Source of the DNA: the human T2T-CHM13v2.0 reference genome, Homo sapiens
Length of the DNA stretch: 64,000 nt
Reading direction: 5' to 3' (one strand)
Assembly (NCBI RefSeq): GCF_009914755.1
Contig: NC_060927.1
Shown: positions 6,101 through 45,900 of the stretch, piece after piece
How the letters are laid out: each line of letters begins with the position of its first letter
How positions within the stretch are numbered: the first letter of the stretch is position 1
Program-made: the position numbers and the translations under genes
Notes under the pieces: model-generated
Database searches by the model: none
The model's input: the letters and a program-made list of their open reading frames with translations, nothing else
Told to the model about the DNA's origin: nothing

Positions 6101-8297
6101 TTGTATATTTAGAAAACCCCATTGTCTCAGTCCAAAATCTCCTTAAGTTGATAAGCAACTTTACCAAAGTCTCAGGATACAAAATCAATGTGCAAAATTC
6201 ACAAGCATTCCAATAACAGACAGAGAGCCAAATCATGAGTGAACTCCATTCACAATTGCTACAAAGATAATACCTAGGAATCCAACTTATAATGGATGTG
6301 AAAGACCTCTTCAAGGAGAACTACAAACCACTGCTCAGCGAAATAAAAGAGGACACAAACTAATGGAAGAACATTCCATGCTCATGGATAGGAAGAATCA
6401 ATATCATGAAAATGGCCATACTGCCCAAGGTAATTTATAGATTCAATGCCATCCCCATCAAGCTACCAATTACTTTCTTCACAGAATTGGAAAAAACTAC
6501 TTTAAAGTTCATATGGAACCAAAAGAGAGCCCACATATTCAATACAATCCTAAGCCAAAAGAACAAAGCTGGAGGCATCACGCTACCTGACTTCAAACTA
6601 TACTACAAGGCTACAGTAACCAAAACAGCATGGTACTGGTACCAAAACAGAGAGATAGACCAATGGAACAGAACAGAGGCCTCAGAAATAACACCACACA
6701 TCTACAACCATCTGATCTTTGACAAACCTGAGAAAAACAAGAAATGGAGAAAGGATTCCCTATTTAATAAGTGGTGCTGGGAAAACTGGCTAGCCATATG
6801 TAGAAAGCTGAAACTGGATCCCTTCCTTACACCTTATACAAAAATTAATGCAAGTTGGACTAAGACTGAAATGTTAGACCTAAAATCATAAAAAGCCTAG
6901 AAGAAAACCTAGGCAATACCATTCAGGACATAGGCATGGGCAAGGACTTCAGGTCTAAAACACCAAAAGCAATGGCAGCAAAAGCCAAAATAGACAAATG
7001 GGATCTAATTAAACTAGAGAGCTTCTGCACAGCAAAAGAAACTACCATCAGAGTGAATAGGCAACCTACAGAATGGGAGAAAAATTTTGCAATCTACCCA
7101 TCTGACAAAGGGCTACTATCCAGAATCTACAAAGAACTTAAACAAATTTACAAGAAAAAAACAAACAACCCCATCAAAAAGTGGGCAAAGGATATGAACA
7201 GACACTTCTCAAAAGAAGACATTTATGCAGCCAACAGACACATGAAAATAAGCTCATCATCCCTGGTCATCAGAGAAATGCAAATCAAAACCACAATGAG
7301 ATACCATCTCATACCAGTTAGAATGGCAATCATTAAAAAGTCAGGAAACAACAGATGCTGGAGAGGATGTGAAGAAATAGGAACGCTTTTACCCTTTTGG
7401 TGGGCGTGTAAAGTAGTTCAACGATTGTGGAAGACAGTGTGGTGATTCCTCAAGGATCTAGAACTAGAAATACCATTTGTCCCAGCAATCCCATTACTGA
7501 GTATATATCCAAAGGATTATAATTCATGCTACTATAAAGACACACGCACACGTATGTTTATTGCGGCACTACTCACAACAGCAAAAACTTGGAATCAACC
7601 CAAATGTCCATCAATGATAGAGTAGATTAAGAAAATGTGGCATACATACACCATGATTGAATACTATGCAGCCATAAAAAGGGGTGAGTTCATGTCCTTT
7701 GCAGGGACATGGATGCAACTGGAAACCATCATTCTGAGCAAACTATCACAAGGACAGAAAACCAAACACCACATGTTCTCACTCATAGGTGGGAATTGGA
7801 CAATGAGAACACTTGGACACAGGGCGGGGAACATCACACCCTGGGGCCTGTCCTGGGGTGGGGGCCAGGGGGAAGGACAGCATTAGGAGAAATACCTAAT
7901 GTAAACGACGAGTTAATGGGTGCAGCAAACCAACATGGCACATGTATACGTATGTAACAAACCTGCACATTGTGCACATGTACCCTCGAACTTCAAGTAT
8001 TAAAAAAAAAGACACTTGGAACAAATACATTTTTTAAAAGATATTCAACTATATTGGCCCTTTTTACTTGTCAGGAGTTTACATACTTTTATTAACATTC
8101 CATTACATCTCCTAAGGAGTAGGTGTCATTAGTCCTGTTTTACTGATACAGTTATCAAAGCTCAGTGAAATTTTTAATAAGAAATATAAGTGCTGAGATT
8201 TATTGAACTCTTATTCTATACCTAGCCCATGCTGAGCTCTTTACATATATATATGTGTGTGTGCTAGTAACCTAAACATTACAATTAAAAGGCAGAG

Positions 8298-8879
8298 TTG
8301 CAAAGAACTTGAAAGAGAACTACTATTCAATCCAGCAATCCCATTACTGAGTATACACCAAGAGGAAAATAAATTGTTTTACCAAAGATACAGGCACTCA
8401 TATGTTGATCTCAGCACTATTCACAATAGCAAAGGCATGGAATCAACCTAAGTGCTCATCATCAGTGGATTGAATAAAGAAAATATGGTGCATATACATC
8501 ATGGAATGCTATGCAGCCATAAAAAGAATAAACTCATGTTTTTTGAAGCAACATGGATGCAGCTGGAGGCCATTATCCTAAGCAACTTAATACATGAATG
8601 GAAAACCAAATACCACACATTCTCACTTATAAGGGGGAGCTAAATATTGGGTACTCATGGACATAAAGATGGCAACAATAGACAGTGGGGACTATTAGAG
8701 GGGGAAGGGAGGGAAGGGATAAGGGTTGATACACTAACCAATGGATACTATGCTCACTACCTGGGTGATAGGATCAATCATAGCCCAAACCTCAGTAACA
8801 CACAATGTACCCATGTAACAAACGTGCAAATGTACCCCTGAGTCTAAAATAAAAGTTGACATTATAAAAATAAATAAAT
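8298..8879 (+). mobile_element. 5'-truncated L1 3' end (L1PA15-16/L1PB4-like)
   Basis: ggacataaagatggcaacaatagac and tactatgctcactacctgggtga 3'UTR motifs; TSD aaaaggcagag (8287-8297) / aaatggcagag (8880-8890). Confidence 0.8.
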
Positions 8880-8890
8880 AAATGGCAGAG

Positions 8891-42831: not shown

Positions 42832-42924
42832 CAGCCGCTGCAAAATCATGCCAAAATGTAAAGACCACTGAGACTAGGAATAAACTACATCAACTAACGA
42901 GCAAAATAACCAGCTAACATCATA

Positions 42925-45900
42925 ATGACAGGATCAAATTCACACATAACAATATTAACTTGAAATGTAAACGGACTAAATGCTCCAATTAAAAGACACA
43001 GACTGGCAAATTGGATAAAGAGTCAAGACCCATCAGTGTGCTGTATTCAGGAAACCCATCTCACATGCAGAGACACACACAGGCTCAAAATAAAAGGATG
43101 GAGGAAGACCTACCAAGCAAGTGGAAAACAAAAAAAGGCAGGGGTTGCAATCCTAGTCTCTGATAAAACAGACTTTAAACCAACAAAGGTCAAAAGAGAC
43201 AAAGAAGGCCATTACATAATGGCAAAGGGATCAACTCAACAAGAAGAGCTAACTATCCTAAATATATATGCACCCAATACAGGAGCACCAAGATTCATAA
43301 AGCAAGTCCTGAGTGACCTACAAAGAGACTTGGACTCCCACACATTAATAATGGGAGACTTTAACACCCCACTGTCAACATTAGACAGATCAACGAGACA
43401 GAAAGTCAACAAGGATACCCAGGAATTGAACTCAGCTCTGCACCAAGCGGACCTAATAGACATCTACAGAACTCTCCACCCCAAATCAACAGAATATACA
43501 TTTTTTTCAGCACCACACCACACCTATTCCAAAGTTGACCACATACTTGGAAGTAAAGCTCTCCTCAGCAAATGTAAAAGAACAGAAATTATAACAAACA
43601 ATCTCTCAGACCACAGTGCAATCAAACTAGAACTCAGGATTAAGAATCTCACTCAAACCGCTCAACTACGTGGAAACTGAACAACCTGCTCCTGAATGAC
43701 TACTGGGTACATAACGAAATGAAGGCAGAAATAAAGATGTTCTTTGAAACCAATGAGAACAAAGACACAACATACCAGAATCTCTGGGACGCATTCAAAG
43801 CAGTGTGTAGAGGGAAATTTATAGCACTAAATGCCCACAAGAGAAAGCAGGAAAGATCCAAAATTGACACCCTAACATCACAATTAAAATAACTAGAAAA
43901 GCAAGAGCAAACACATTCAAAAGCTAGCAGAAGGCAAGAAATAACTAAGATCAGAGCAGAACTGAAGGAAATAGAGACACAAAAAACCCTTCAAAAAATT
44001 AATGAATCCAGGAGCTGGTTTTTTGAAAGGATCAACAAAATTGATAGACTGCTAGCAAGACTAATAAAGAAAAAAAGAGAGAAGAATCAAATAGATGCAA
44101 TAAAAAATGATAAAGGGGATATCACCACGGATCCCACAGAAATACAAACTACCATCAGAGAATACTACAAACACCTCTATGCAAATAAACTAGAAAATCT
44201 AGAAGAAATGGATAAATTCCTTGACACATACACCCTCCCAAGACTAAACCAGGAAGAAGTTGAATCTCTGAATAGACCAATAACAGGATCTGAAATTGTG
44301 GCAATAATCAATAGCTTACCAACCAAAAAGAGTCCAGGACCAGATGGATTCACAGCCAAATTCTACCAGAGGTACAAGGAGGAACTGGTACCATTCCTTC
44401 TGAAACTATTCCAATCAATAGAAAAAGAGGGAATCCTCCCTAACTCATTTTATGAGGCCAGCATCATTCTGATACCAAAGCCAGGCAGAGACACAGCCAA
44501 AAAAGAGAATTTTAGACCAATATCCTTGATGAACATTGATGCAAAAATCCTCAATAAAACACTGGCAAACCGAAACCAGCAGCACATCAAAAAGCTTATC
44601 CACCATGATCAAGTGGGCTTCATCCCTGGGATGCAAGGCTGGTTCAATATACGCAAATCAATAAATGTAATCCAGCATATAAACAGAGCCAAAGACAAAA
44701 ACCACATGATTATCTCAATAGATGCAGAAAAGGCCTTTGACAAAATTCAACAGCCCTTCATGCTAAAAACTCTCAATAAATTAGGTATTGATGGGACATA
44801 TTTCAAAATAATAAGAGCTATCTATGACAAACCCACAGCCAATATCATCCTGAATGGGCAAAAACTGGAAGCATTCCCTTTGAAAACTGGCACAAGACAG
44901 GGATGCCCCCTCTCACCGCTCCTATTCAACATAGTGTTGGAAGTTCTGGCCAGGACAATTAGGCAGGAGAAGGAAATAAAGGGTATTCAATTAGGAAAAG
45001 AGGAAGTCAAATTGTCCCTGTTTGCAGATGACATGATTGTATATCTAGAAAACCCCATTGTCTCAGCCCAAAATCTCCTTAAGCTGATAAGCAACTTCAG
45101 CAAAGTCTCAGGATACAAAATCAATGTACAAAAATCACAAGCATTCCTATACACCAACAACAGACAAACAGAGAGCCAAATCATGAGTGAACTCCCATTC
45201 ACAATTGCTTCAAAGAGAATAAAATACCTAGGAATCCAACTTACAAGGGATGTGAAGGACCTCTTCAAGGAGAACTACAAACCGCTGCTCAAGGAAATAA
45301 AAGAGGATACAAACAAATGGAAGAACATTCCATGCTCATGGGTAGGAAGAATCAATATTGTGAAAATGGCCATACTGCCCAAGGTAATTTACAGATTCAA
45401 TGCCATCCCCATCAAGCTACCAATGCCTTTCTTCACAGAATTGGAAAAAACTACTTTAAAGTTCGTATGGAACCAAAAAAGAGCCCGCATCGCCAAGTCA
45501 ATCCTAAGCCAAAAGAACAAAGCTGGAGGCATCACACTACCTGACTTCAAACTATACTACAAGGCTACAGTAACCAAAACAGCATGGTACTGGTACCAAA
45601 ACAGAGATATACACCAATGGAACAGAACAGAGCCCTCAGAAATAATGCCGCATATCTACAACTATCTGATCTTTGACAAACCTGAGAAAAACAAGCAATG
45701 GGGAAAGGATTCCCTATTTAATAAATGGTGCTGGGAAAACTGGCTAGCCATACGTAGAAAGCTGAAAATGGATCCCTTCCTTACACCTTATACAAAAATT
45801 AATGCAAGTTGGACTAAGACTGAAATGTTAGACCTAAAACCATAAAAACCCTAGAAGAAAACCTAGGCATTACCATTCAGGACATAGGCATGGGCAAGGA

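What the first reader, a model, noticed from the sequence alone, without database searches (positions are those of the whole stretch)
6815..45839. Two L1s of different subfamilies, 39 kb apart, share the same frameshifting patch in ORF2
Seen: both full-length L1s read aaaaattaatGcaagTtggaCtaagactGaaatgttag (6850-6868 and 45804-45822), translating as [16 protein letters not shown]. The patch lies in a 71-bp tract identical between them (6815-6885 = 45769-45839), bounded by mismatches on both sides. The two other L1s covering this region (near 29955 and 39243) have the normal tcaagat...aaagactta form. Known: the L1PA consensus is TCAAGATGGATTAAAGACTTAAA (INSRWIKDLNV), so the patch is 4 substitutions plus a 1-nt deletion in 19 nt, and it cuts off the CCHC domain. 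The elements belong to different subfamilies (5'UTR and ORF1 differ), and a frameshifted parent could not have propagated it in cis. Inference: short-tract inter-L1 gene conversion copying a disabling lesion between neighbours, a shared external template, or an assembly/editing artefact.
Basis: partly seen in the sequence, partly recalled or inferred. Interest (0 to 1): 0.85.

Follow-up and report, generated by a model that had tools for sequence, protein, structure and literature searches.

The report
Short gene conversion between neighbouring L1s
Two independently inserted L1 retrotransposons 39 kb apart share a cluster of five mutations found nowhere else in the genome, most likely because a stretch of a few dozen bases was copied from the older element into the younger one during DNA repair, a known process.

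Summary
Both full-length L1s carry the same 4 substitutions plus a 1-nt deletion within 19 nt (6850-6868, 45804-45822). An exhaustive pattern search of the 3.1-Gb assembly finds the 27-mer only at these two places, against 4496 exact copies of the normal form, so it is not a subfamily allele.

The elements inserted separately: each has its own 15-nt target-site duplication and there is no flank homology. They belong to different lineages. A (1554-8004) is older, B (40938-46993) younger, and 103 lineage-diagnostic sites separate them.

The 71-nt identical tract is not evidence by itself, because runs of 97 and 71 nt occur elsewhere in the pair. The evidence is this:
- Five of 9 shared-derived sites in 4.6 kb fall within 19 nt.
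- B also carries A-lineage bases at the two diagnostic sites flanking the patch (45800, 45826), while its 20 nearest relatives do not.

Best reading: non-allelic gene conversion from A into B, tract 27-71 nt. This is a clean instance of a known process. An assembly artefact cannot be excluded without reads. The conversion added one more frameshift to an ORF2 that has other lesions.

The parts
1554..8004 (+). L1-A: older full-length L1, the inferred donor. It is interrupted by an Alu at about 2821-3125 and has no long ORF left.
   Evidence: self-BLAST extent; ends and TSD; only short ORFs. Its relatives are 91-95% identical. 121 private columns of 3105.
1539..1553 (+). 5' target-site duplication of L1-A (15 nt, AAAAAAGACACTTGG). 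The second copy is at 8005-8019.
   Evidence: exact string found only at 1539 and 8005.
8005..8019 (+). 3' target-site duplication of L1-A.
6850..6868 (+). Patch in L1-A: 4 substitutions and a 1-nt deletion relative to 57 other copies. Native to A under the best reading.
6815..6885 (+). Stretch of A identical to B (71 nt). This is the largest possible donor tract if the flanking mismatches predate the event.
40938..46993 (+). L1-B: younger full-length L1, the inferred recipient. 5'UTR of 907 nt, ORF1 open, ORF2 broken at several places.
   Evidence: ends. Its relatives are 97-98% identical. 23 private columns of 3105. (ORFs and Pfam domains).
40923..40937 (+). 5' target-site duplication of L1-B (15 nt, AACATACATATACCT). 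The second copy is at 46994-47008.
   Evidence: exact string found only at 40923 and 46994.
46994..47008 (+). 3' target-site duplication of L1-B.
45800..45826 (+). Minimal converted tract in B (27 nt): the five patch changes plus A-lineage bases at the two flanking diagnostic sites, 45800 and 45826.
45769..45839 (+). Maximal converted tract in B if the flanking mismatches are older than the event (71 nt). 45768 is a base that B shares with its relative L048. 45840 is the base common to both panels, where A has a rare T.
45843..45845 (+). Premature stop in B's ORF2 frame caused by the frameshift in the patch.
46310..46363 (+). CCHC motif of B's ORF2 ([18 protein letters not shown]), now out of frame with the reverse-transcriptase part.
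   Evidence: RVT_1 lies in the upstream 650-aa piece.

Best explanation
Non-allelic (ectopic) gene conversion between two L1 elements that lie 39 kb apart in the same orientation on one chromosome. The older element A accumulated five changes within 19 nt of its decaying ORF2. After the younger element B had inserted, a DNA break or heteroduplex in B was repaired using A as template, most simply by synthesis-dependent strand annealing. This copied 27 to 71 nt of A into B. The copied stretch carried the five changes and two A-lineage bases, and added a frameshift to B's ORF2. Shown: the patch is unique to the pair, the two insertions were independent, the elements belong to different lineages, and B is discordant with its own lineage only inside the tract. 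Inferred: the repair pathway, the timing (after B's insertion, which I estimate at several million years ago from B's roughly 1% private divergence), and that A's five changes arose in A.
For: Uniqueness: the 27-mer has 2 exact hits in 3.117 Gb and only 1 further hit at up to 3 mismatches. The same tool returns 4496 exact hits for the normal 28-mer, so the search is exhaustive.

Independent insertions: each element has its own 15-nt TSD, and homology stops at the L1 ends.

Different lineages: in the 3' 3.1 kb there are 52 diagnostic sites. A has the A-panel state at 44 (B-panel state at 5, neither at 3). B has the B-panel state at 47 and the A-panel state at 5. In 3400-4900 there are 51 diagnostic sites, with A concordant at 50 and B at 49. 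The 5'UTRs are 76-78% identical.

Clustering: 7 shared-derived sites in 3105 columns, 5 of them the patch, plus 2 isolated ones in 1524 further columns. 0 of 2,000,000 random placements cluster this tightly.

Direction: B carries T at 45800 and T at 45826. Of B's 20 nearest relatives (at least 96.8% identical outside the tract), 19 have C at the first site, 18 have C at the second, and none has T at both. A's panel has T at 26 of 28 and 23 of 28. Five private changes in 19 nt are unremarkable for A (expected 0.32 such windows per element at its private rate) but not for B (1.3e-4; 5e-7 for seven changes in 27 nt).

Precedent: conversion between L1PA3 LINEs and between L1PA7 LINEs has been seen in human long reads (PMC5829575, passages). 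A break in a chromosomal LINE can be repaired by conversion from endogenous LINEs, with tracts as small as 13 bp (PMC1920257, passage citing Tremblay et al. 2000).
Against: No reads, second human assembly or primate orthologue could be examined, so neither the pre-conversion state of B nor the correctness of the assembly at both loci is shown. The run of identity (71 nt) is not longer than others in the pair, so a run-length test of the GENECONV kind would probably not flag it. The direction rests on two diagnostic sites. One of them (45826) sits at a CpG in B's lineage and could have decayed to T on its own: 8 of 29 B-panel copies have T. The panels were retrieved by similarity to A or B, with 40 of 6527 and 40 of 2907 candidates scored. 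They are biased and mixed; for example L020, L025 and L026 were retrieved with A but are closer to B. Three of the four substitutions are transversions and sit next to a deletion. That hints at one complex mutation rather than slow accumulation, which weakens the density argument for A as the origin.
Confidence: 0.8

Rival explanations
1. Gene conversion in the opposite direction: the patch arose in the younger element B and was copied into A.
For: The patch is identical in both, so the patch alone gives no polarity. A cluster dominated by transversions next to a deletion could be a single complex event, which could strike either element.
Against: B would also need to be natively T/T at 45800 and 45826, a combination seen in 0 of its 20 nearest relatives. 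B's private mutation rate makes a native cluster very unlikely under independent mutation.
Confidence: 0.07
2. Assembly or polishing artefact: sequence from one L1 was written into the other in T2T-CHM13.
For: It could not be tested, as no reads or second assembly were available. The 27-mer was absent from two other public collections that could hold human contaminant DNA (0 hits), which gives no independent confirmation.
Against: The two elements differ at 472 of 4975 aligned columns, including mismatches 36 nt to the left and 18 nt to the right of the patch. Reads spanning the patch would therefore be assignable. A mis-polish from mis-mapped reads would tend to carry those neighbouring differences too, and they were not transferred. 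This is inference, not a test.
Confidence: 0.04
3. Both elements were converted from a third donor, either an external template or an L1 copy now lost or absent from this haplotype.
For: It cannot be excluded from one haplotype.
Against: No third copy exists within 3 mismatches in the assembly. The single 3-mismatch hit is a roughly 600-bp chr4 fragment that shares only 2 of the 5 changes and no other rare variant with A. No direct or inverted template of 12 nt or more lies in the window: one 11-mer and five 10-mers match elsewhere, about my own rough chance estimate of 3-4 for 10-mers. This reading needs two conversions instead of one.
Confidence: 0.03
4. The patch was acquired when B was made: the reverse transcriptase switched from B's RNA to A's transcript and back during B's insertion.
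For: Chimeric L1 insertions are described in the literature (recalled, not checked here).
Against: It needs two switches 27-71 nt apart, plus the coincidence that B landed 39 kb from the one locus whose transcript it borrowed. Proximity is what DNA-level conversion predicts (PMC6598467, section 4: rates rise for nearby copies).
Confidence: 0.02
5. Subfamily allele, common descent, or chance parallel mutation.
For: The 1-nt deletion alone recurs: 13 exact genomic copies of the deletion-only form.
Against: There are 2 carriers against 4496 copies of the normal form. The elements differ at 103 diagnostic sites and have separate TSDs. Five identical parallel changes in B have a probability below 1e-6.
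Confidence: 0.01

Closest known systems
Non-allelic gene conversion between dispersed transposable-element copies (Alu, LTR, L1), as reviewed by Fawcett and Innan 2019 (PMC6598467, section 4 read)
   Same: A copy shows a mosaic of diagnostic mutations from two subfamilies, a cluster of derived alleles is transferred together, and the donor lies on the same chromosome.
   Different: The review's examples are mostly Alu and LTR. Elevated rates are quoted there for copies within 10 kb; here the distance is 39 kb. The transfer here runs from an old, decayed copy into a younger one.
Conversion between L1PA LINEs seen in human long reads (Frith and Khan 2018, PMC5829575, passages read: Fig. 4S L1PA3-L1PA3; Fig. 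4H L1PA7 with inversion)
   Same: Local intrachromosomal conversion between nearby L1PA elements in the human genome.
   Different: Those cases were detected as read-versus-reference rearrangements and involve elements of the same subfamily. Here the tract is only 27-71 nt, lies between different lineages, and is inferred from a single assembly.
[quoted passage not shown]
   Same: It offers the mechanism proposed here: a break in one LINE repaired from another LINE, with very short tracts (as small as 13 bp).
   Different: That was an experimental somatic system with an induced break. Here the event is a fixed or segregating germline event of unknown trigger.

Membership tests
Non-allelic (interlocus) gene conversion | Two paralogous sequences at distinct loci with independent origin, not one duplicated segment | tested here: met
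   Separate 15-nt TSDs for each element. Homology ends at the L1 ends.
Non-allelic (interlocus) gene conversion | A bounded tract in which the recipient carries donor-specific states, flanked by sequence that follows the recipient's own lineage | tested here: met
   B has A-type states at 45800 and 45826 plus the five patch changes. The flanking diagnostic sites 45647, 45650, 45663, 45696 and 45870 are B-type.
Non-allelic (interlocus) gene conversion | The shared states are not explained by common descent or recurrent mutation | tested here: met
   2 carriers in the genome against 4496 normal copies. Clustering seen in 0 of 2,000,000 simulations.
Non-allelic (interlocus) gene conversion | An unconverted ancestral state of the recipient (orthologue or other allele) exists | not testable with these tools
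   No primate genomes, pangenome or reads were available. The contaminant searches gave 0 hits.
Non-allelic (interlocus) gene conversion | Tract length within the known range | tested here: met
   27-71 nt. Tracts as small as 13 bp are reported for LINE-templated repair (PMC1920257 passage).
L1 subfamily-diagnostic allele | Present in many copies of one subfamily | tested here: not met
   Only the two neighbouring copies carry it.
Segmental or tandem duplication of one L1 | Homology extends into the flanks, with shared TSDs | tested here: not met
   No flank homology, different TSDs, 5'UTRs only 76-78% identical.
Full-length LINE-1 (both elements) | TSDs, a 3' A-rich tail, ORF1 with L1 domains, ORF2 with reverse transcriptase | tested here: met
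   (TSDs and tails). For B: Transposase_22, Tnp_22_dsRBD and Tnp_22_trimer in ORF1, and RVT_1 at E 6.3e-46 in ORF2. A aligns to B end to end, but its proteins were not scanned.

The most novel reading that the evidence does not exclude
The transfer ran from a long-dead L1 into a much younger neighbour, after the young element inserted. B's 907-nt 5'UTR and roughly 1% private divergence suggest, from memory of subfamily ages, an L1PA2/L1PA3-age element. That would make the event hominid-specific and possibly still polymorphic in humans. If such old-to-young micro-conversions are common, the large pool of fossil L1s would act as a reservoir of disabling lesions. These would be copied into young neighbours, contributing to their inactivation and distorting L1 subfamily and age calls. 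This locus would be a polarised, datable example.
Probability: 0.1. Interest if true: 0.55.

Novelty: new member of a known kind. Interest (0 to 1): 0.3.

Why it matters
It is a clean, polarised example of very short-tract ectopic conversion between non-allelic L1s of different ages, 39 kb apart, with a marker that is unique in the genome. It shows that a cluster of mutations in a young repeat copy can be imported rather than native. This matters for dating repeats by divergence, for calling multi-nucleotide mutations, and for interpreting disabling lesions in young L1s. It does not reveal a new mechanism.

Tried and rejected
- Run length as evidence: rejected. Identical runs of 97 and 71 nt occur elsewhere in the pair.
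- Subfamily allele: rejected.
- The 1-nt deletion as an inherited lineage feature of A: 8 of 28 A-panel copies carry it, but genome-wide the deletion-only form has 13 exact copies against 4496. The carriers are no closer to A than non-carriers, and some are B-like. This looks like retrieval bias plus recurrent loss in a run of three A's.
- The chr4 fragment sharing 2 of the 5 changes (L003): only about 600 bp of L1, 92.7% identical to A, with no other shared rare variant inside the aligned part. Treated as coincidence.
- Local templated origin of the patch (template switch): no direct or inverted match of 12 nt or more elsewhere in the window; one 11-mer and five 10-mers match, about my own rough chance estimate of 3-4 for 10-mers.
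- A second conversion tract: B has A-type states at isolated diagnostic sites (43657, 43754, 43949, 44234, 45614). A and B differ between the neighbouring ones, and no shared-derived cluster accompanies them.
- Independent confirmation from human contaminant DNA in other collections: 0 hits.
- Tremblay et al. 2000 was not held.
- The 5' 1.8 kb of the elements (5'UTR and start of ORF1, upstream of 3400 / 42335) was not scanned against a panel.
- Subfamily names were not tested, because no repeat library was available.
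Full report
**Observation.** A pairwise alignment of the two elements from ORF1 to the 3' end has 4975 columns, 472 of them differing. It shows 6815-6885 identical to 45769-45839, bounded by mismatches. 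Against 57 other L1 copies, the shared variant is four substitutions (6850 G, 6855 T, 6860 C, 6868 G) and the loss of one A after 6861, all within 19 nt. The two other L1 fragments in the window have the usual form. In B the frameshift leads to a stop at 45843-45845. It also puts the CCHC motif at 46310 out of frame with the reverse-transcriptase part.

**What is and is not beyond chance.** The 71-nt identity is not special. The same pair has identical runs of 97, 71 and 65 nt elsewhere, and identity is 93-96% through most of ORF2. The signal is the patch itself:
- The 27-mer spanning it occurs twice in the 3.117-Gb assembly, at these two places.
- Allowing three mismatches adds a single chr4 fragment that shares only two of the five changes.
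- The same tool finds 4496 exact copies of the normal 28-mer and 13 of a form with the deletion only. The search is therefore exhaustive, and the patch is not a subfamily allele.

**The two elements.** Each is a full-length L1 with its own 15-nt target-site duplication: A at 1539-1553 and 8005-8019, B at 40923-40937 and 46994-47008. Similarity between the loci stops at the L1 ends, and the 5'UTRs are only 76-78% identical. They are therefore separate insertions, not a duplicated segment.

Genomic relatives retrieved with A are 91-95% identical to it, and those retrieved with B are 97-98% identical. In 3105 aligned columns of the 3' half, A has 121 private columns and B has 23. A is clearly the older element. 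I could not name the subfamilies, because no repeat library was available. From memory of subfamily ages, B's 907-nt 5'UTR and roughly 1% private divergence fit a young L1PA element, and A fits one several-fold older.

**Lineage-diagnostic sites.** I compared 28 copies retrieved with A and 29 retrieved with B, taking sites where the two panels have different majority bases (at least 70% each). In the 3' 3.1 kb there are 52 such sites:
- A has the A-panel state at 44, the B-panel state at 5, and neither at 3.
- B has the B-panel state at 47 and the A-panel state at 5.

In 3400-4900, with a small panel of 5 plus 5 copies, there are 51 sites. A is concordant at 50 and B at 49. These panels are biased samples: 40 of 6527 and 40 of 2907 candidates were scored. 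They are also somewhat mixed. That bias explains why 8 of 28 A-panel copies carry the same 1-nt deletion although it is rare genome-wide.

**Conversion and its direction.** Sites where A and B agree with each other but with at most 15% of the panel number 7 in the 3' 3105 columns. Five of them are the patch, and the other two are isolated. The 1524 columns of 3400-4900 add two isolated ones. In 2,000,000 random placements of nine sites, none put five within 20 columns.

B's A-type states at diagnostic sites include the two that flank the patch, 45800 and 45826. Of B's 20 nearest relatives outside the tract, 19 have C at the first site, 18 have C at the second, and none has T at both. A's panel has T at 26 of 28 and 23 of 28. 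So inside 45800-45826 B departs from its own lineage at seven positions, all matching A. A departs from its lineage only at the five patch positions.

At A's private rate, a window with five changes in 19 nt is expected about 0.3 times per element. At B's rate the expectation is about 1e-4, and about 5e-7 for seven changes in 27 nt. The simplest history is that the changes arose in A and were copied into B.

**Tract limits.**
- Minimum: 45800-45826, 27 nt.
- Left bound: 45768, a base that B shares with its relative L048 while A has the common base.
- Right bound: 45840, where A has a rare T and B the common C. Together these give a maximum of 71 nt if those differences predate the event.
- Outer limits: the next firm lineage markers that B keeps are 45696 on the left and 45870 on the right.

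**Mechanism.** The pattern fits non-reciprocal repair of a lesion in B using A as template, on the same chromatid, the sister or the homologue. This is an inference from established knowledge of homologous repair. It agrees with published cases:
- Conversion between L1PA3 LINEs and between L1PA7 LINEs in human long reads (PMC5829575, passages).
- LINE-templated break repair with tracts as small as 13 bp (PMC1920257, passage citing Tremblay et al. 2000; the original paper was not held).
- The review of conversion among transposable-element copies, with distance dependence (PMC6598467, section 4).

I found no template for the origin of the patch itself, either in the window or in the genome. Three of the four substitutions are transversions, and they sit beside a deletion. 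The patch may therefore have arisen in A as one complex mutation rather than by accumulation; this is unresolved.

**Consequence.** B's ORF1 is open (328 aa, three L1 ORF1 domains). Its ORF2 has other lesions besides the imported frameshift: a frame change at a private 1-nt deletion near 43654, an in-frame stop at 43890-43892, and a stop just upstream of 42964. Whether the conversion hit an intact ORF2 cannot be told.

**What remains open.** No reads, second human assembly or ape genome could be consulted, and searches of two other collections for stray human DNA gave nothing. An assembly artefact therefore stays possible. I rate it low, because differences between the elements 36 nt to the left and 18 nt to the right of the patch were not transferred. 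The 5' 1.8 kb of the elements was not compared with a panel. No second tract was found in the 4.6 kb that was examined.

**Verdict.** This is a real and well-supported instance of short-tract ectopic gene conversion between neighbouring L1s, most likely from the older into the younger. The process is documented, so the finding is a new member of a known kind and of modest interest.

Noticed in passing
Loci L017, L019, L020, L022, L026, L030, L031, L033 (column aligned to window 6861/6862): Eight of 28 copies retrieved with A lack the same A in the run of three. Genome-wide the deletion-only 27-mer has 13 exact copies against 4496 of the normal form. The carriers belong to different lineages, so this looks like recurrent loss plus retrieval bias of the search's first look.
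   Followed up: yes
L003 (G000:C4:128823831-128823857, minus strand): A chr4 L1 fragment of about 600 bp shares two of the five patch changes (the T-to-C change and the 1-nt deletion) but no other rare variant with A. Probably coincidence.
   Followed up: yes
window 41845-42831 and 42964-46750: L1-B keeps an open ORF1 of 328 aa with all three Pfam ORF1 domains. Its ORF2 is broken at about four places, including a private 1-nt deletion near 43654 and an in-frame stop at 43890-43892.
   Followed up: partly
window 40601-41236: The RefSeq enhancer feature in the hub's table overlaps the first 300 nt of L1-B's 5'UTR (the element starts at 40938), so the annotated enhancer may be the L1 promoter region.
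   Followed up: no
window 43657, 43754, 43949, 44234, 45614: B has the A-panel base at five isolated diagnostic sites away from the patch. A and B differ between the neighbouring ones, and no shared rare variants accompany them. These may reflect sub-lineage variation in B's family, back-mutation, or very small conversions.
   Followed up: partly
window 2821-3125: An Alu is inserted in L1-A's 5' region, flanked by a short A-rich repeat (AAAAAAGATT). It is absent from L1-B.
   Followed up: no
window 6537-6865: NCBI's repeat mask (hub table) leaves about 330 nt of L1-A unmasked just upstream of the patch, but only 10 nt (45810-45819) in L1-B. A has a small cluster of private changes at 6537-6543. 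This is a masking quirk rather than biology, as far as seen.
   Followed up: no
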